From a virus (Duplodnaviria; Heunggongvirae; Uroviricota; Caudoviricetes), in IMG/VR virus record IMGVR_UViG_2563366830_000009: DNA of 6,457 bases. The stretch is one strand, 5' to 3'. The translations under genes and the position numbers were made by a program. A model generated the notes under the pieces. It saw only the letters and a program-made list of their open reading frames with translations, did not search any database and was not told where the DNA came from. Positions 1 through 6,457 of this stretch are shown here, piece after piece. Numbering within the stretch: position 1 is the first letter of the stretch; each line of letters starts with the position of its first letter.

Positions 1-224
1 CCGCCGCCCGGGCGGGAATCCGCAGAACGCCCACCGCAGCGTGAGCCGTCAGCAGCAGTGTCGCTGTCGTGCTGACAACGACCGGCAAAGGCCTGAGTTG
101 ACGCTACCAGAGACAACAAAACGAACAGTGCAGCAAATGCTTTTTTCATTGTGACATTTCCATCTATAAGCCACCTCAATGTGGCGTCAATGAGTGTAGC
201 ACTGACTTTTGTTTCGTCCATAAA
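1..224. repeat. Direct repeat copy 1 (about 224 bp, 2 mismatches to copy 2 at 1176-1399); may extend left of the window
   Basis: Read directly: positions 1-224 align with 1176-1399 at offset 1175, differing only at 185 (c vs t) and 215 (t vs c). Contains the perfect palindrome CCCGCCCGGGCGGG (3-16). Confidence 0.9.
163..190 (-). promoter_or_regulatory. Sigma70-like promoter inside repeat copy 1 (-35 TTGACG, -10 TATAGA, 16-nt spacer)
   Basis: Minus-strand reading shows a -35 hexamer at 190-185 and -10 at 168-163. The single repeat mismatch at 185 falls in the -35 (TTGACG here, consensus TTGACA in copy 2). Confidence 0.4.
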
Positions 225-230
225 AAACTA

Positions 231-1098: not shown

Positions 1099-1113
1099 TT
1101 ACCTTTAAGGTAA
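1099..1113. promoter_or_regulatory. Operator-like perfect palindrome TTACCTTTAAGGTAA (site 1), overlapping a -10-like hexamer of a minus-strand promoter
   Basis: Minus strand reads TTGCAG(1141-1136)-17 nt-TACTAT(1118-1113) running into the palindrome. The identical 16-mer TTACCTTTAAGGTAAT recurs at 3921-3936. Confidence 0.55.
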
Positions 1114-2240: not shown

Positions 2241-2255
2241 TTACCAATCGGGTAA
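2241..2255. promoter_or_regulatory. Operator-like site 2, TTACCAATCGGGTAA (same TTACC-N5-GGTAA half-sites), overlapping a -10-like TAAAAT on the minus strand
   Basis: Same half-site and spacing as sites 1, 3 and 4. The surrounding region is homologous to the region upstream of the 108-aa gene (shared ATAATT...ACA...TTGCAG). Confidence 0.45.
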
Positions 2256-2340: not shown

Positions 2341-3060
2341 TCAGAAGAACCCTGCCTTGTCGTTGATGTACTCCGCGTGGGTCTGGATATCACGCAGGCA
2401 TTTGCTCACACCGACGATGTAGCAGAACATGGTGGTCAGCTCCGCCGCCGCGCCCGATACGTCATGCCCGTCTTCCTGTAACTGGTTCAGCAAATTCATC
2501 AGCAGTGAGTTCTCCGTCAGGCCGAGAACACCAGACGGCGAGTGAATCAGGCTGCGGTAGCCGGGCTTCAGTGGGGCGCTGTATTCTTTTTTGTCTTCCA
2601 GCTTGATCGCCTCCATAATGGCGGGCATGAATTTTTCAATTACCTGAGTGGCCTTTGATAAATCAGCTCCACCTGAGAGACGAACATCTCCACTGACATT
2701 TGCGGGTTTTCTGTCGAAGTAGCAATCTTCCAGTTTTTCGAAGACCTCCCACGCTTTTTCAGTCTCAAGAATTTTCGCATGTCGTGCTGCACCGCGAGCG
2801 GTCCATAAGAAAAGATGACTTACTTTTGGTGCAATATTAAGCAAACCTCTTTGAGAGGACTCGTTCTTAAATGCTCGTAATTCTTCGCCTATCAGCTTGA
2901 AACAATGTTTTCCCTCAATGAATCGATCTGCATTTCGTTGATAGTTTTGACGAATCAGTTTGGGTTCTGTGTCATACAAATCAGCAAGCATTTCTGTAGT
3001 CATTACAGGGATGTTGCAATGAGTTGTTATCGGCAACTTATCAATAGCTATATTACGCAT
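2341..3060 (-). CDS. ORF6N-domain (KilA-N superfamily) protein, often annotated as phage antirepressor-like; N-terminal ORF6N domain plus an uncharacterised C-terminal domain of about 130 aa
   Basis: N-terminal region (VMTTEMLADLYDTEPKLIRQNYQRNADRFIEGKHCFKLIGEE...LWTARGAARHAKILETEKA) fits the ORF6N consensus as I recall it (VMLD-DLA-LY...RN-RFP-F-L-EE). The track start is 3075, but GGAGG with 8-nt spacing favours ATG at 3060-3058. That start overlaps the upstream gene stop (3053-3055) in the sequence ATGCGTAA. Confidence 0.6.
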   Translation of the reverse strand: MRNIAIDKLPITTHCNIPVMTTEMLADLYDTEPKLIRQNYQRNADRFIEGKHCFKLIGEELRAFKNESSQRGLLNIAPKVSHLFLWTARGAARHAKILETEKAWEVFEKLEDCYFDRKPANVSGDVRLSGGADLSKATQVIEKFMPAIMEAIKLEDKKEYSAPLKPGYRSLIHSPSGVLGLTENSLLMNLLNQLQEDGHDVSGAAAELTTMFCYIVGVSKCLRDIQTHAEYINDKAGFF

Positions 3061-3559
3061 TTTCATTGCCTCCATCTTTCACGACGAAATAGCAATTATC
3101 TTTATAATCTAACTGGATGAACTTTATGTTTTCAGGGAGTTTTACAGAAAGAGTTTTTGCACAAGCAAAACCAAAATCTGCGCCAGAAGCATCCATATAC
3201 CTTAATAATTGTTTTAATGCTGAAGGAGAAAAAGTATCTACCTTCACCTCAACAGGGTAACCATCTTTTGTTTTTAGGTCTGGTTGACCTGGTCCACCAA
3301 GTATTTCAGCGTTAAGGTATTTTGCTATTTCTGGATAAGCGTTGTATTCAGAGCGTAGTTTTGCCTTGTTATCGACTGCTAGTTGCATAAGATGATCAAA
3401 CAAATTGGTATCTAAATCTGCCCCTTCATCCCACATTCTATTTCTACAGCTAATCAATTCACTGACCAGTGGTGCACTTTCTTGCCTTAGCATAAGAAGG
3501 AGTGGAGAATTAGAAATTAACCAATACAGATCGTCGTTTGAGATTTTTTGGCCTGGCAT
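3053..3559 (-). CDS. Hypothetical protein (168 aa), AT-rich, translationally coupled to the ORF6N gene
   Basis: RBS GAGGT about 7 nt before ATG at 3559. Overlaps the downstream gene by 8 nt. No recognisable domain by eye. Confidence 0.5.
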   Translation of the reverse strand: MPGQKISNDDLYWLISNSPLLLMLRQESAPLVSELISCRNRMWDEGADLDTNLFDHLMQLAVDNKAKLRSEYNAYPEIAKYLNAEILGGPGQPDLKTKDGYPVEVKVDTFSPSALKQLLRYMDASGADFGFACAKTLSVKLPENIKFIQLDYKDNCYFVVKDGGNENA

Positions 3560-3835
3560 AGCGATACCTCTACTAGTAAGTTACCTACCACCGCAACGCC
3601 AATTGCTGGTGGTGAACTGGACAAGGTTGGCGTACCGGCCTAGTAGGTACCGGCGCACCTTTCGGTGCCCCTGCCCAGCCCACCATAATTCGGATATGAC
3701 TGTGCTATACGCATAAAAAAACCACGTCTGGCGTGGTATGCGCCTACTAGTAATCCGGGACGCCAATCCCGGCACTGGATTTTGCCAGTGCCCGATTACT
3801 ATGGCACAAGAGGAGTGCGATGTAAATTTACCGAA
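3560..3835 (-). ncRNA. Candidate structured RNA: either an sRNA of about 120 nt (roughly 3835 to 3714) or a long attenuator-type 5' leader of the 168-aa/ORF6N operon
   Basis: Multiple nested stem-loops are visible: an outer stem AGTAATC/GATTACT (3748-3754 with 3794-3800) enclosing hairpins CCGGGA-CGCCAA-TCCCGG and CACTGG-ATTTTG-CCAGTG; GCACC-TTTC-GGTGC; ACCACC...GGTGGT. A promoter with overlapping operator sits upstream and the terminator is at 3714-3737. No ATG-initiated ORF in this minus-strand stretch. Confidence 0.3.
3714..3737 (-). terminator. Intrinsic terminator-like hairpin on the minus strand (ACCACG-CCAGA-CGTGGT followed by U6-7) inside the long region upstream of the 168-aa gene
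   Basis: Plus strand shows aaaaaaACCACGtctggCGTGGT; on the minus strand the 6-bp stem is followed by a T-run. It lies about 155 nt upstream of the 168-aa start codon. Confidence 0.5.
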
Positions 3836-3871
3836 AAGGTAATGATAAACGCTAAGAAATATTAAAATCAA
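3828..3871 (-). promoter_or_regulatory. Minus-strand promoter (-35 TTGATT 3871-3866, 18-nt spacer, -10 TATCAT 3847-3842) overlapping operator-like site 3, TTACCGAAAAGGTAA (3828-3842)
   Basis: Minus strand reads TTGATTttaatatttcttagcgttTATCATTACCTTTTCGGTAA. The arrangement of a -10 hexamer running into the TTACC half-site is the same as at site 1 (TACTATTACC). Confidence 0.4.
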
Positions 3872-3920
3872 CCATATTTGGTTGATTGCGTTTAACGCTT
3901 GATCACCTGAAAGCAAGATA

Positions 3921-3935
3921 TTACCTTTAAGGTAA
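3921..3935. promoter_or_regulatory. Operator-like site 4, TTACCTTTAAGGTAA, identical to site 1 and 21 nt upstream of the 175-aa gene start
   Basis: Perfect palindrome; the 16-mer TTACCTTTAAGGTAAT matches 1099-1114. It is followed by tgtGAGGAaaagcaATG (RBS and start at 3956). Confidence 0.5.
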
Positions 3936-3955
3936 TGTTATTGTGAGGAAAAGCA

Positions 3956-4483
3956 ATGGAAGTTTTCTTAATCATCGTCGGCATCGTGATTATTAATTTT
4001 GTTTTTTTATTTATTGCAAAAAAACAAAAAAGTAACGATATGCATGTTTCTACAACTGATGATCTTACCTTTGTAGAGCATGCACTGAATGTATCAGGAT
4101 ATAAACTCACTCCATACGGAGCTGGTGTATCACTCATGTCTTTAAGTAACGGTTTTTCAAAAGAAGAAACATTTTCACATATAGCTTTGATGGCTCTTTC
4201 TCAACACGCCAAAGTCGCAGGTAGTGACGCAATTGAGCTTAGTAAAGTTAGCATTCGTGCGATGTCGATAGCTGAAAACTTAACTAAATTATTCAGGAAA
4301 GGTCTTATTCGATCAGAAATATATAAAAATGATTTGAATGCTATCATGGCTGTCAGCACAATTAATGAAAACCAAGAGGATTGGATTTCCATAGTTCTGG
4401 AAAGCAATAGCACATCTAACAAGGATACTATTGCTTTGCCGATAAGTGCAGAAGCTTCTTTAGAAGCCATAAACAGCCATTGA
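3956..4483 (+). CDS. Hypothetical single-pass membrane protein (175 aa), AT-rich; N-terminal TM helix then a soluble domain
   Basis: RBS GAGGA 8 nt before ATG. The N-terminus MEVFLIIVGIVIINFVFLFIAKKQK is a clear TM segment with a positive patch after it. Only plus-strand gene in the window; convergent with the 618-aa gene. Confidence 0.5.
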   Translation: MEVFLIIVGIVIINFVFLFIAKKQKSNDMHVSTTDDLTFVEHALNVSGYKLTPYGAGVSLMSLSNGFSKEETFSHIALMALSQHAKVAGSDAIELSKVSIRAMSIAENLTKLFRKGLIRSEIYKNDLNAIMAVSTINENQEDWISIVLESNSTSNKDTIALPISAEASLEAINSH

Positions 4484-4504: not shown

Positions 4505-6361
4505 TTAACGCATCACCGGATCCACCTGGTTTATTAGTGGCGCAATCCAGAACAGGTTATTGCCGGGGATCGTAGTTCGTACATTATGTACAATACGATC
4601 ACCGACATCACCATTCAACACACCAGAGGTCACATCAATGATGCTGTCCGCAAGACTGAATGACGGGCCGAACAAAGAACTCACAAAGCCACGGCTGGCA
4701 TAGCGTGACTGTGTGCCGGTGCCAAATAAAGCCCCCAGCCCAACAGCACCACCAGTAGCCTTTTCAGCCATGTTGTTATATTCCATCAATGGCCCAAGAA
4801 TACCGGATCTATCTATACCCTCAAGCACCAGCTTCTCTGGTGACCAGTCAACATCCTTCCCTTTCGATGCTTCTTTAAGCGCATAGACCAGTGAGCCAAG
4901 AGCAATCTGAAATGCAGTGCCATAATAAAACTGCGCAGTTCCTTCCTGTAACCCACCAAGTAGCGCACGGTTGTATGAAGCCGTTGTGAATGATTTAAAC
5001 TGAAATATCGTTCGCCCCCATGACGTACTCGCCCATAAAGGTGTGTCACCAATACCGGGGGTGATGATAGTGTTATTAACGTCTTTCAGAACCGCTGACT
5101 GGAATACTCCGGCAACGTACTGATCGTCCCATTTATCAAAGTTACCAATGTGCCATCCATCAATTACCTCACCATGTTTCTCGAACTCACTGCGAATACG
5201 CGCAGCCATATTGTCGTTGATACCGAGTTTTGCCAGGCGGCGTGCAGGAAATGCACCGGACAAAATACCGTCTGAAATAACCATTCCGTTCATGGATTTG
5301 TTTATGTCATTAAAGCGATCCATGAGTGTCAGCTTGCCGAAGGCATCAGTAATTCGCTCCATTCCGGCTTCGACTGCTGTTGTCCTGGAAGAGCTGTCAA
5401 CAAGATCACCAATTGCACGAGAGCGTGAATGCAGTACAGTTTCCAGTCCGATACCCATCTTCAACATCTCTTCTTTGCTGGCCTTAAATGCCGGTGATTG
5501 GGATATCTGAGAAGCATAGCCTTTCATGGTGTTACGGAAACCATTAACCATAACCCCTCTGGCCAGATCTGGAATAGCTGATACTGTCATTCCACCGAGT
5601 TTGGTCGTGAAGTTCACATCCCGCAGAAAAGCGCCAGCACGAACAAAAAACGAAGACGGATCATCAGGCATCCCATATGTACCAACAAGACGATCGCGTA
5701 ATGCTGTTATGTCTCTGAGATCATTTGCTCTTGATTTTGAAAGTCTGGACTGTTCTTTCCGTAATTCCTTTTCGTACTTTCGCATTAATGAATCGAGTTT
5801 ACCCTGAGGAACAACTTCACCATTGCTCTCATAACGTGCTTTCAGATTTGCCACACTTTCGTCATATTTCGCCTTTATTTTTTCAGGCACTTCCCGTAAC
5901 AGACTGTCATATTCGTCCTCAATTAATTGCAGACGCTCAGTCATAGTTCGTTTGCCAAATGTTCTCGTCAACTCAATTTCTGCTGCCGCTTCACGGATAT
6001 GACGTTGCAGCACGTAATTCACATCACTTTCAAGATAATCCCTGATAAGACTATCAGGAACATTTAATGTTCTTTCTTTCGTACTACCTGCGGCTTTTAC
6101 AGAAAATACGCTGACAAAATCCTGTGGAACCTTAGCACCAGTAATTTTATTAATTACGATATCTGCTGCAATTTCAGCATCCTCAGGAACCAGTGTTTTA
6201 TTTCCTCTCGACCACCAGTCAACCAAAATACGTCGAAATTTATCGCGTTCACTGATTATTTTTCCAACTTTATATATGCGTGGGAAATAGCTTGCCTGGC
6301 CTAATGCTTTCAGTTCTTCATCTGGCGGCAATAAACCAAGCTTTTGCATTTCAACTTTCAC
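4505..6361 (-). CDS. Large hypothetical protein (618 aa as tracked), charged/coiled-coil-like middle and Gly-rich hydrophobic C-terminal segment; possibly a phage virion or injection/tape-measure-like protein; 5' end abuts an IS element
   Basis: Long uninterrupted ORF. The tracked start at 6361 is GTG; the first ATG is at 6349-6347, with weak SD for both. The reading frame stays open upstream into the IS end at 6378 and to the window edge. No Walker A or HExxH motif seen. The family guess is weak. Confidence 0.6.
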   Translation of the reverse strand: MKVEMQKLGLLPPDEELKALGQASYFPRIYKVGKIISERDKFRRILVDWWSRGNKTLVPEDAEIAADIVINKITGAKVPQDFVSVFSVKAAGSTKERTLNVPDSLIRDYLESDVNYVLQRHIREAAAEIELTRTFGKRTMTERLQLIEDEYDSLLREVPEKIKAKYDESVANLKARYESNGEVVPQGKLDSLMRKYEKELRKEQSRLSKSRANDLRDITALRDRLVGTYGMPDDPSSFFVRAGAFLRDVNFTTKLGGMTVSAIPDLARGVMVNGFRNTMKGYASQISQSPAFKASKEEMLKMGIGLETVLHSRSRAIGDLVDSSSRTTAVEAGMERITDAFGKLTLMDRFNDINKSMNGMVISDGILSGAFPARRLAKLGINDNMAARIRSEFEKHGEVIDGWHIGNFDKWDDQYVAGVFQSAVLKDVNNTIITPGIGDTPLWASTSWGRTIFQFKSFTTASYNRALLGGLQEGTAQFYYGTAFQIALGSLVYALKEASKGKDVDWSPEKLVLEGIDRSGILGPLMEYNNMAEKATGGAVGLGALFGTGTQSRYASRGFVSSLFGPSFSLADSIIDVTSGVLNGDVGDRIVHNVRTTIPGNNLFWIAPLINQVDPVMR

Positions 6362-6377
6362 CCGATTTAATACAGTT

Positions 6378-6457
6378 TGAACCGCCCCGGGAATCCTGGA
6401 GACTAAACTTCCTGAGAAAGAGGTAAACAGGATGACTAAAAATACTCGTTTTTCCCC
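6378..6457 (+). mobile_element. Left end of an IS3-family insertion sequence (IS629/IS1203-like): terminal inverted repeat starting TGAACCGCCCCGGG plus the first codons of orfA (MTKNTRFS from ATG 6432)
   Basis: The sequence TGAACCGCCCCGGGAATCCTGGAGACTAAACTTCCTGAGAAAGAGGTAAACAGGATGACTAAAAATACTCG matches my memory of the IS629-type left end and OrfA N-terminus (MTKNTRFSPEVRQRA...). The element continues beyond the window. Confidence 0.65.

What the first reader, a model, noticed from the sequence alone, without database searches (positions are those of the whole stretch)
3956..4483. Orphan AT-rich single-TM protein under the identical operator as the YafO-like module
The 175-aa gene is the only plus-strand gene in the window and has the exact 16-mer operator (TTACCTTTAAGGTAAT) 21 nt before its start. 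Its composition is markedly AT-rich with a single N-terminal TM helix, an architecture common among abortive-infection and holin-like effectors. Sharing an operator with a toxin module suggests co-repression and co-induction.
Basis: partly seen in the sequence, partly recalled or inferred. Interest (0 to 1): 0.5.

Follow-up and report, generated by a model that had tools for sequence, protein, structure and literature searches.

The report
Repressor-controlled prophage membrane accessory gene
This is a real but uncharacterised gene of an epsilon15/phiV10-type E. coli prophage: it encodes a membrane-tethered protein, is controlled by the phage's own, already annotated repressor-binding site, and sits where phage P22 keeps its superinfection-exclusion gene, so it is an ordinary prophage accessory gene whose function is still unknown.

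Summary
ORF 3956-4483 is a genuine, conserved 175-aa gene with 35% GC and one N-terminal TM helix. The 16-mer lies 19 nt before its ATG and recurs exactly at 1099-1114.

The motif is not private to this gene and the YafO-like module. TTACC-N5-GGTAA occurs 4 times in the window and 13 times in the surrounding prophage, including both sides of the rep gene. The epsilon15 RefSeq record annotates the same motif as the repressor site. The resident Rep is 99% identical to phiV10 p40 and homologous to the crystallised SPC32H Rep.

Co-repression is therefore supported, but it means membership of a prophage-wide Rep regulon. Gene, operator and promoter spacing are conserved in a relative whose protein is only 39% identical. 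The gene always lies convergent to the last ejection-protein gene and next to the antirepressor cassettes, exactly where P22 has sieA.

The soluble domain (AF2 pLDDT 97) has no Pfam, NCBIfam, PADLOC or structural match. It belongs to at least 109 sequence clusters, and most of the roughly ten relatives whose surroundings I examined sit in prophages or other mobile elements. Nothing supports a holin or Abi pore.

My best guess is a Rep-gated, membrane-tethered protein acting early in lytic growth, possibly in exclusion. The function remains unproven.

The parts
3956..4483 (+). Coding sequence of the 175-aa protein (stop codon included)
   Evidence: ORF list; RefSeq CDS WP_000451652.1; phrog_21690, E 7.5e-104; homologues at 93-39% identity; pN/pS about 0.25.
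3959..4018 (+). N-terminal transmembrane anchor, residues 2-21 (EVFLIIVGIVIINFVFLFIA) followed by KKQK. Predicted N-out, C-in.
   Evidence: It is the only hydrophobic 19-mer window (mean KD 2.77) and is helical in the first AF2 model. The topology is inferred from the positive-inside rule. The same MEhF-hydrophobic N-terminus is present in the TM-anchored relatives P0010, P0014, P0018, P0042 and P0043.
4043..4450 (+). Conserved soluble domain, residues about 30-165: six helices plus a small two-stranded sheet. No family is assigned.
3920..3936 (.). Rep operator, ATTACCTT-T-AAGGTAAT (perfect 8+1+8 palindrome), overlapping the core promoter of the gene
   Evidence: Same motif as the sites annotated 'repressor; lysogeny' in epsilon15. 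Identical in alleles L004-L009. ATTACCTTTTAGGTAAT sits at the same distance from the ATG in the 39%-identical relative L021.
3899..3927 (+). Putative sigma-70 promoter: -35 TTGATC (3899-3904), 17-nt spacer, -10 TACCTT (3922-3927, inside the operator). Predicted start near 3934.
   Evidence: The TTGATY hexamer and its 15-nt distance to ATTACC are conserved in three lineages while the spacer sequence differs. The consensus scan did not call it, so it is a weak promoter. An alternative is TTAACG(3892-3897)-19-GATATT. Not mapped experimentally.
3945..3948 (+). Shine-Dalgarno GAGG, 7 nt before the ATG
   Evidence: Read from the sequence. The same layout of operator, GAGG and ATG recurs at the PL-like unit and at the 113-aa gene.
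3828..3842 (.). Second Rep operator (TTACCGAAAAGGTAA), 93 bp from the first. It abuts the divergent minus-strand promoter TTGATT-18-TATCAT (3871-3842) of the isrK/C4/antirepressor operon.
   Evidence: The equivalent operator pair in L021 is 91 bp apart.
3866..3887 (-). Hairpin with a 9-bp stem followed by a U-run on the minus strand. It looks like a terminator that shields the antirepressor operon from transcription running antisense through the 175-aa gene.
   Evidence: Terminator scan. RNA fold -13.4 kcal/mol, z = -4.2. The function is inferred.
1099..1113 (.). Rep operator upstream of the 108-aa / YafO-like unit (minus strand). Its 16-mer is identical to the one at 3921.
   Evidence: Promoter-like TTGCAG-17-TACTAT ends on the operator.
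2241..2255 (.). Rep operator upstream of the 113-aa / DUF2335 unit (minus strand)
   Evidence: TTAAAA-16-TAAAAT ends on the operator, followed by GAGG and the ATG 21 nt downstream.
3605..3804 (-). Leader RNAs of the divergent antirepressor operon: isrK (3715-3791), c4-a1b1 targets (3752-3804) and C4 antisense RNA (3605-3690)
   Evidence: Rfam: C4 76.7 bits, isrK 68.1 bits, a1b1 45.1 bits, the last just below its gathering score.
4505..6361 (-). 3' part of the last internal-virion (ejection) protein gene, convergent with the 175-aa gene across a 21-bp gap. Its 5' end is cut off by an IS3-family element that starts near 6371-6378.
   Evidence: phrog_342 'internal virion protein', E 3.6e-130. Full-length 1007-aa homologues lie next to the gene in L004-L009. 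A 56%-identical homologue lies next to P0010 in L021. RefSeq flags the gene as a pseudogene beside an IS3 transposase.

Best explanation
The ORF is an accessory gene of an epsilon15/phiV10-like (Uetakevirus-type) prophage of E. coli MS 196-1. In this strain the prophage is crippled by IS insertions.

The protein is a bitopic inner-membrane protein. A 20-residue N-terminal anchor holds a roughly 150-residue, all-alpha domain of an undescribed family at the cytoplasmic face of the membrane.

Its weak promoter (TTGATC-17-TACCTT) lies inside the best copy of the prophage repressor operator. Rep, a homologue of the SPC32H repressor with no autocleavage domain, should therefore occlude the -10 element and keep the gene silent in a stable lysogen.

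The gene should be switched on together with the rest of the Rep regulon in two situations: when Rep is absent (fresh infection) or when Rep is inactivated by an antirepressor (induction). That regulon comprises the PL- and PR-like units, the antirepressor cassettes, the DUF2335 unit and the YafO-like unit. Later, convergent late transcription from the ejection-protein operon probably dampens the gene again.

Proposed function (inferred, not shown): the tethered domain binds a partner at the inner membrane early in lytic growth. The most likely effect is to interfere with DNA entry or early development of superinfecting related podoviruses. That would be lytic-phase exclusion as with T4 Imm, in the genomic slot where P22 keeps sieA.

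My separate confidences are: Rep control about 0.8, anchor-plus-cytoplasmic-domain architecture about 0.75, exclusion function about 0.25. The overall figure given is for the whole chain, function included.
For: Phage identity and operator:
- The window is 100% identical to NZ_CP146681, inside a prophage with portal, capsid, terminase, holin/endolysin and endosialidase tailspike genes.
- TTACC-N5-GGTAA has 13 perfect copies, all inside the prophage, with 0.72 expected when one mismatch is allowed. Pairs flank rep at 41509/41557 and 42269/42331.
- The epsilon15 RefSeq record annotates ATTACC-N5-GGTAAT as repressor sites. phiV10 and SPC32H carry the motif at homologous places.
- Rep is 99% identical to phiV10 p40 and matches the PDB 5d50 SPC32H repressor at E 3.5e-42. 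Overexpressing what the ZX5 paper reports as the same repressor sequence as phiV10 ORF40 blocks lytic growth (PMC9782041).

Operator-gene link conserved:
- Operator, TTGATY and spacing are identical in L004-L009.
- They are preserved in L021, where the protein is 39% identical and the spacer sequences differ.
- Other units place the -10 on the edge of the operator.

Synteny:
- The gene is convergent to the last internal-virion protein gene in the window, in L004-L009, in L021 (56%-identical virion protein) and in L037.
- P22 has gene 16, then a convergent sieA across a 22-bp gap, then mnt/arc/ant/sar and the tailspike gene.

Protein:
- One TM segment; confident fold.
- The family's other members sit as morons in prophages and mobile elements.
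Against: - No experiment or expression data exist for this gene.
- There is no homology to SieA (BLASTP E 0.21, hhalign probability 0.3%) or to any known exclusion or defence protein.
- The consensus scan did not call the promoter, and its -10 matches only 3 of 6 positions.
- A gene silenced by Rep cannot protect a stable lysogen, which is how SieA works.
- The domain also occurs as a soluble protein and fused to MarR-like winged-helix modules. That argues for a general binding or sensing role rather than one tied to podovirus ejection proteins.
- Conserved position may simply reflect common descent of the whole region.
- The 47-48%-identical copies in L003 (no TTACC-N5-GGTAA site) and L025 lie outside any Uetakevirus context.
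Confidence: 0.35

Rival explanations
1. It is a Rep-gated early gene with a role other than exclusion. The tethered domain might sequester or modulate a host factor or a component of the phage's own regulation at the membrane. Candidates include a protease or chaperone, a cell-division or envelope function, or a part of the Rep/antirepressor circuit. The effect would be host takeover or tuning of the lysis-lysogeny decision.
For: The regulatory evidence is the same as for the best explanation. The domain is fused to MarR-like winged-helix modules in about a quarter of the family and lies in early regions of prophages and integrative elements, paired with a conserved ~320-aa protein. That suggests a sensing or partner-binding module. 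The gene sits inside the antirepressor region.
Against: No partner has been identified. The gene is dispensable for the phage type, since phiV10, epsilon15 and SPC32H lack it. Low GC and patchy distribution (6 of 5426 complete E. coli genomes) fit a competitive accessory function better than a core regulatory one.
Confidence: 0.25
2. It is a SieA-type superinfection-exclusion protein made in the lysogen. On this reading the operator at 3921 mainly helps Rep repress the divergent antirepressor promoter, for example by cooperative binding with the site 93 bp away. Enough transcription would escape, or start elsewhere, to protect the lysogen.
For: The genomic position and size match P22 sieA. [quoted passage not shown] Other membrane proteins occupy this slot in relatives: TL-2011b gp39, phiV10 p21 and SPC32H_019. 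Relatives of the domain occur as reverse-strand morons inside a tail-gene module.
Against: The -10 element lies inside a perfect operator, and this arrangement is conserved with the gene. There is one TM helix with a cytoplasmic domain, against three TM segments in SieA. There is no sequence similarity.
Confidence: 0.12
3. One reading: a toxic membrane effector, holin-like or abortive-infection type, that depolarises the cell and is co-induced with the YafO-like toxin.
For: It has a single hydrophobic helix, low GC, and the same operator as a YafO-like unit. It lies in a region full of accessory cassettes.
Against: No PADLOC, Pfam or NCBIfam hit. The prophage has its own holins, endolysin and spanin elsewhere. 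The conserved part is the ~130-residue soluble domain, and most family members lack any TM segment. Operator sharing is prophage-wide, not specific to the toxin. The YafO assignment itself is below the Pfam cut-off (19.7 against 25 bits).
Confidence: 0.08
4. It is a decaying or spurious ORF with no function, and the operator matters only for the neighbouring antirepressor operon.
For: The prophage is defective, with two IS insertions and missing tail genes. The gene is rare.
Against: Conservation down to 39% identity with the same architecture. pN/pS about 0.25. AF2 pLDDT 97 from an 89-sequence alignment. The promoter-operator-RBS geometry is conserved.
Confidence: 0.03

Closest known systems
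Repressor (Rep) operator regulon of epsilon15-like podoviruses (epsilon15, SPC32H/SPN1S, phiV10, vB_EcoP_ZX5)
   Same: The same ATTACC-N5-GGTAAT palindrome is dispersed over many transcription units, including both sides of rep. The Rep protein is homologous. There is an SPC32H-type 85-aa Ant with a LexA box next to the tailspike gene.
   Different: The sequenced reference phages do not carry this 175-aa gene. Here the operator family also governs extra cassettes: isrK/C4 antirepressors, DUF2335, the YafO-like unit and this gene.
Phage P22 sieA (superinfection exclusion A) in the immI region
   Same: The same slot. Both are convergent to the last ejection-protein gene across a gap of about 21-22 bp, lie beside an antirepressor operon with an antisense RNA, and lie before the tailspike gene. 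Sizes are similar (164 against 175 aa). Both are inner-membrane proteins (PMC10883804).
   Different: No sequence or profile similarity. One TM helix with a large cytoplasmic domain, against three predicted TM segments. sieA has its own unrepressed promoter and is expressed from the prophage, whereas this gene's promoter is covered by the Rep operator.
Phage T4 Imm and other exclusion proteins made early in lytic growth (from my own knowledge, not tested here)
   Same: A small inner-membrane protein produced early in the lytic programme would protect the infected cell from secondary infection. This is the timing the Rep operator predicts.
   Different: No homology was tested or is expected. 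T4 is virulent, and its Imm acts on T-even injection.
Phage P1 C1 regulon and immI operon (c4 RNA, icd, ant) (from my own knowledge plus Rfam hits)
   Same: A primary repressor with operators scattered over the genome. An antirepressor operon preceded by a C4 antisense RNA with a1/b1 targets. A small ORF overlapping the start of the antirepressor gene (3053-3559 / 2341-3075).
   Different: The repressor family and operator sequence are different. P1 has no counterpart of the 175-aa gene at this position.
PHROG family phrog_21690, and the wider unnamed domain family found here
   Same: Full-length match at E 7.5e-104. 109 clusters share the soluble domain.
   Different: The PHROG has no function assigned. 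The wider family has no Pfam or NCBIfam model and no structural neighbour.

Membership tests
Rep operator of epsilon15-like (Uetakevirus) phages | Sequence ATTACC-N5-GGTAAT, as annotated for the repressor in epsilon15 | tested here: met
   Window 3920-3936 is ATTACCTTTAAGGTAAT. The epsilon15 protein_bind sites include ATTACCTAAAAGGTAAT and ATTACCTGTAAGGTAAT.
Rep operator of epsilon15-like (Uetakevirus) phages | The same motif flanks the repressor gene (OR/OL-like positions) in the same prophage, and a cognate Rep gene is present | tested here: met
   Sites at L001 41509/41557 and 42269/42331 lie around rep (41627-42211). Rep is 99% identical to phiV10 p40 and matches 5d50 at E 3.5e-42.
Rep operator of epsilon15-like (Uetakevirus) phages | The site overlaps a promoter in a repression geometry | tested here: inconclusive
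   Conserved TTGATY-17-TACCTT puts the -10 inside the operator. This is sequence inference only, the consensus scan did not call it, and no transcription start has been mapped.
Rep operator of epsilon15-like (Uetakevirus) phages | Physical binding by Rep, and repression in vivo | not testable with these tools
   Needs EMSA or footprinting and reporter fusions. The SPC32H Rep paper (PNAS 2016) was not available to read.
P22 SieA superinfection-exclusion proteins | Sequence or profile homology to SieA | tested here: not met
   BLASTP E 0.21 over 7 residues; hhalign probability 0.3%.
P22 SieA superinfection-exclusion proteins | Polytopic inner-membrane protein (three predicted TM segments) | tested here: not met
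   Only one hydrophobic segment, against three predicted TM domains in SieA (PMC10883804).
P22 SieA superinfection-exclusion proteins | Gene convergent to the last ejection-protein gene, beside the antirepressor region | tested here: met
   The window ORF ends at 4483, facing the virion-protein gene end at 4505. P22 gene 16 ends at 13313, facing the sieA end at 13336. The synteny is conserved in L004-L009, L021 and L037.
P22 SieA superinfection-exclusion proteins | Expressed from the prophage and blocks DNA injection by related phages | not testable with these tools
   The sequence suggests the opposite for expression, because the Rep operator covers the promoter. Exclusion assays are needed.
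Holins | Match to a holin family, and location in the lysis cassette next to the endolysin | tested here: not met
   No Pfam, PHROG-function or NCBIfam hit. The holins (Phage_holin_8, Phage_holin_3_7), endolysin and spanin are at L001 11898-15031, about 9 kb away.
Known anti-phage defence / abortive-infection effectors (PADLOC-DB v2) | HMM match to a protein of a described defence system | tested here: not met
   0 families at E <= 0.01.
YafO toxin family (the neighbouring 170-aa protein, 231-743) | Pfam PF13957 match above the gathering score | tested here: inconclusive
   19.7 bits against a cut-off of 25, E 9.5e-4. No NCBIfam hit. RefSeq nevertheless names it a YafO family toxin. Toxicity and the antitoxin role of the 108-aa protein are untested.

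The most novel reading that the evidence does not exclude
The protein founds a structurally new class of membrane-tethered exclusion or anti-phage proteins that is wired directly to the prophage repressor. Together with the YafO-like and DUF2335 cassettes, it would form a 'repressor-gated' arsenal. That arsenal would be released only when Rep is lost: during the phage's own lytic growth, or when a competing phage's antirepressor inactivates the resident Rep. A soluble form of the same domain would be reused widely in other prophages and mobile elements.
Probability: 0.12. Interest if true: 0.65.

Novelty: new member of a known kind. Interest (0 to 1): 0.3.

Why it matters
The regulatory part is already explained. 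The 16-mer is the known operator of epsilon15-type repressors, so sharing it with a toxin-like module is expected rather than remarkable.

Three things remain of modest interest:
- The protein carries a confidently predicted domain with no family name and no structural neighbour. The domain recurs in at least 109 sequence clusters, and most of the roughly ten relatives whose surroundings I examined are prophage or mobile-element cargo.
- Its position next to the ejection-protein genes, and its promoter-operator layout, are conserved down to 39% protein identity. It occupies the slot of P22 sieA.
- The same control module and the same type of N-terminal anchor drive a different cytoplasmic domain in other prophages.

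If the protein proved to be an exclusion factor deployed only on derepression, it would add a new protein family and a new regulatory logic to phage-phage competition. If not, it is one more accessory gene of unknown function.

Tried and rejected
- Pfam, PHROGs, PADLOC and NCBIfam on the protein and on 89 family members gave no functional family.
- A PDB sequence-profile search found nothing.
- The first AF2 model, built from 8 sequences, was too poor to use (pLDDT 63).
- I looked for a conserved partner gene in the neighbourhoods of distant homologues. There is none across the family. Only the winged-helix fusions share a ~320-aa neighbour.
- My first operator pattern used the wrong spacer (N6) and found nothing. 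It was corrected to N5.
- A downstream plus-strand terminator for the gene is not supported (z = 0.45).
- I considered the alternative promoter TTAACG-19-GATATT and ranked it lower, because TTAACG is not conserved in L021.
- I looked for a covarying operator in the heteroimmune-looking relative L037. It has only degenerate, asymmetric sites, so this is suggestive and nothing more.
The narrow alignment found only one GTDB species locus and six IMG/VR contigs.
- There is no match in the GenBank phage collection and no paper mentioning WP_000451652.
- The SPC32H repressor paper could not be read.

Full report
**Where the window comes from**

The 6457 bases are 100% identical to the chromosome of E. 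coli MS 196-1 (NZ_CP146681). They lie inside a prophage inserted next to yfgI.

The prophage has terminase, portal, capsid, cement-protein, holin/endolysin/spanin and endosialidase tailspike genes, a tRNA-Arg, lambda-like replication genes and a two-HTH repressor. Its closest sequenced relatives are the epsilon15/phiV10/TL-2011b/ZX5 group of podoviruses.

Two IS3-family elements interrupt the prophage. One begins near window position 6371-6378 and removes the 5' part of the last internal-virion protein gene together with the upstream tail genes.

On the minus strand the window carries, in order:
- the 3' 618 codons of that virion protein gene (4505-6361; phrog_342);
- an antirepressor operon made of isrK (3715-3791), C4 antisense RNA (3605-3690) with its a1/b1 targets, a 168-aa ORF and an ORF6N antirepressor;
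- a 113-aa/DUF2335 unit;
- a 108-aa/YafO-like unit;
- two copies of a 227-bp repeat carrying a small lipoprotein-like ORF.

**Checking the observation**

The ORF, the 16-mer and its exact second copy at 1099-1114 are all present and far beyond chance. Nineteen nucleotides, not 21, separate the 16-mer from the ATG. With one more base the site is a perfect 8+1+8 palindrome at 3920-3936.

The gene has 35.2% GC, against 48% for the prophage. It has one hydrophobic segment, residues 1-21, followed by KKQK.

It is a real gene:
- RefSeq calls it.
- It matches phrog_21690 over its full length.
- Alleles with 95% DNA identity give pN/pS of about 0.25.
- Homologues extend to below 30% identity.

**What the 'operator' is**

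The informative core is TTACC-N5-GGTAA.
- It occurs four times in the window, each time just upstream of a transcription unit (1099, 2241, 3828, 3921).
- It occurs 13 times perfectly in the 46-kb locus, always inside the prophage. Pairs flank the repressor gene in OR- and OL-like positions.
- The epsilon15 RefSeq record annotates ATTACC-N5-GGTAAT sites as 'repressor; lysogeny' binding sites.
- phiV10 and SPC32H carry the motif at homologous places.

The resident repressor is 99% identical to phiV10 p40 and is a full-length homologue of the crystallised SPC32H Rep (5d50, E 3.5e-42).
- The ZX5 paper reports that its ORF21 repressor has the same sequence as phiV10 ORF40, and that overexpressing it abolishes lytic growth (PMC9782041).
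- SPC32H Rep is described as binding palindromic DNA as a tetramer that the antirepressor takes apart (PMC9638917).
- The prophage also has an 85-aa homologue of SPC32H Ant (88% identity), preceded by a canonical LexA box.

The motif is therefore the already recognised operator of this phage group. Sharing it marks membership of the Rep regulon, not a private link between this gene and the YafO-like module.

**Is the operator functional for this gene?**

Comparative evidence says yes.
- In six other E. coli prophages (L004-L009) the gene is preceded by the identical palindrome, although the sequence further upstream is unrelated.
- In a metagenomic relative (L021) the protein is only 39% identical. 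There the gene is preceded by ATTACCTTTTAGGTAAT, again exactly 19 nt before the ATG. A TTGATT hexamer again lies exactly 15 nt upstream of the palindrome, while the spacer sequence differs.

A conserved hexamer at a conserved distance across a variable spacer is the signature of a promoter. I read it as -35 TTGATC (3899-3904), a 17-nt spacer, and -10 TACCTT (3922-3927) inside the operator. Transcription would start near 3934, leaving a ~20-nt leader with a GAGG Shine-Dalgarno sequence.

This is inference. The consensus scan did not call the promoter.

Other Rep-controlled units in the prophage place the last base of their -10 on the first T of the operator. That is also a repression geometry.

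A second operator lies 93 bp away in the window and 91 bp away in L021. It sits on the divergent antirepressor promoter, TTGATT-18-TATCAT. Between the two operators is a minus-strand hairpin with a U-run (z = -4.2).

**Conserved position**

The gene is convergent to the last ejection-protein gene and adjacent to antirepressor cassettes in three lineages:
- the window and L004-L009;
- L021-L023, with a virion protein 56% identical (E 6e-146);
- L037, with a homologue 39% identical.

The P22 RefSeq record shows the same layout: gene 16, then sieA convergent across a 22-bp gap, then mnt/arc/ant with the sar antisense RNA, then the tailspike gene. SieA is a 162-164-aa inner-membrane protein that blocks injection and is overcome by changes in ejection proteins gp16 and gp20 (PMC10883804).

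There is no sequence or profile similarity between the two proteins. They also differ in TM number and in predicted regulation.

Relatives lacking the 175-aa gene carry other small membrane proteins in this slot: phiV10 p21, SPC32H_019 and TL-2011b gp39.

**The protein**

The exhaustive search found 109 clusters (58 at E <= 1e-10) sharing residues about 35-160. Three kinds of architecture appear:
- an N-terminal anchor plus the domain, as here, often starting MEhF;
- stand-alone proteins of 130-155 aa with no TM segment;
- a C-terminal domain behind several different N-terminal modules, including a MarR-like winged helix.

Relatives are typically cargo of mobile elements:
- beside P4-like sid/delta/psu genes;
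- between an integrase and a serine recombinase;
- in prophage early regions, paired with a conserved ~320-aa protein;
- as a reverse-strand moron between tail-tube and tape-measure genes.

The gene is rare in E. coli: 6 of 5426 complete genomes. By contrast, the 78-nt segment with promoter, operator, RBS and first codons is present in 133 genomes. In the case I examined, that segment drives a different 242-aa protein with a similar MEVF anchor and Cys-rich repeats.

**Interpretation**

Well supported:
- This is an accessory gene of a Uetakevirus-type prophage.
- It is under direct control of the prophage repressor through a conserved promoter-operator module.
- It encodes a membrane-anchored protein whose conserved part is a soluble domain, predicted to be cytoplasmic, from an undescribed family.

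Inferred:
- It is silent in the lysogen and expressed on infection or induction.
- It acts at the inner membrane, most plausibly in competition with other phages. That would be lytic-phase exclusion, in keeping with its sieA-like position.

Not supported:
- a holin-like or abortive-infection pore;
- a specific pairing with the YafO-like module.

The finding is ordinary as regulation. It is moderately interesting as a candidate new protein family.

Noticed in passing
window 1-227 and 1176-1402: A 227-bp direct repeat (99% identical). Each copy carries a small lipoprotein-like ORF (55 aa, phrog_14503 'membrane associated protein'). The copies bracket the YafO-like cassette, which suggests cassette gain by recombination between repeats.
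   Followed up: partly
window 3605-3804 (minus strand); second copy at L001 18942-19220 (plus strand): An isrK-like RNA, a C4 antisense RNA and its a1/b1 targets precede an antirepressor gene. The prophage carries two such cassettes, one with ORF6N and one with BRO-N, in opposite orientations. RefSeq annotates the C4 region as a frameshifted 'Rha family' pseudogene (L001 23605-23701), which is probably a misannotation of the RNA gene.
   Followed up: partly
L001 18616-18631: A canonical LexA box, CTGTATAAACATACAG, lies between a Rep operator (18562) and the 85-aa gene that is 88% identical to the SPC32H antirepressor. This primary antirepressor is therefore probably under dual Rep and LexA control.
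   Followed up: partly
window 2341-3075; L001 19224-19916: The ORF6N and BRO-N proteins end in a domain matching phrog_450 / phrog_15539, the same families as the 85-aa SPC32H-type Ant. They look like N-terminal DNA-binding-type modules fused to a Rep-binding Ant module.
   Followed up: no
window 3843-3971; L019 3453-3581: The control segment (hairpin, promoter, operator, RBS and first five codons, MEVF) is identical in other prophages. In the case examined it drives an unrelated 242-aa protein (phrog_6762) with the same kind of N-terminal anchor and two Cys-rich zinc-ribbon-like repeats. 133 complete E. coli genomes carry this segment, but only 6 carry the 175-aa gene.
   Followed up: partly
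window about 6371-6457; L001 13561-14789 and 26432-27645: Two IS3-family (IS629-like) copies disrupt the prophage. One splits a holin gene. The other truncates the internal-virion protein gene and is associated with loss of the tail genes, so the prophage is defective while rep stays intact.
   Followed up: partly
L001 42269/42331 and 39171/39233; L010 31953/32015 and 35070/35132; L011 32555/32617 and 35907/35969: Rep operators often come in pairs exactly 62 bp apart that bracket a promoter. The pair in the window is 93 bp apart and the pair in L021 is 91 bp apart. These distances are near whole numbers of helical turns and fit cooperative binding by a tetrameric Rep.
   Followed up: no
L010, L011, L020, L001: Repressors that are far from identical to one another (about 42% between epsilon15 and the phiV10 type, as reported in PMC9782041) appear to use the same TTACC/GGTAA half-sites. 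What sets immunity specificity in this phage group is therefore unclear; it could be the central 5 bp or the spacing of sites.
   Followed up: no
L032 6028-7762; L034 6040-7750: Winged-helix fusions of the domain are preceded by a conserved ~320-aa protein with no family (68% identical between two unrelated elements). This may be a two-gene module.
   Followed up: partly
window 3053-3559: A 168-aa ORF (phrog_18738, 37.7% GC) overlaps the start of the ORF6N antirepressor gene by 23 nt and follows the C4 RNA. This is the position that icd holds in the P1 immI operon. Its function is unknown.
   Followed up: no
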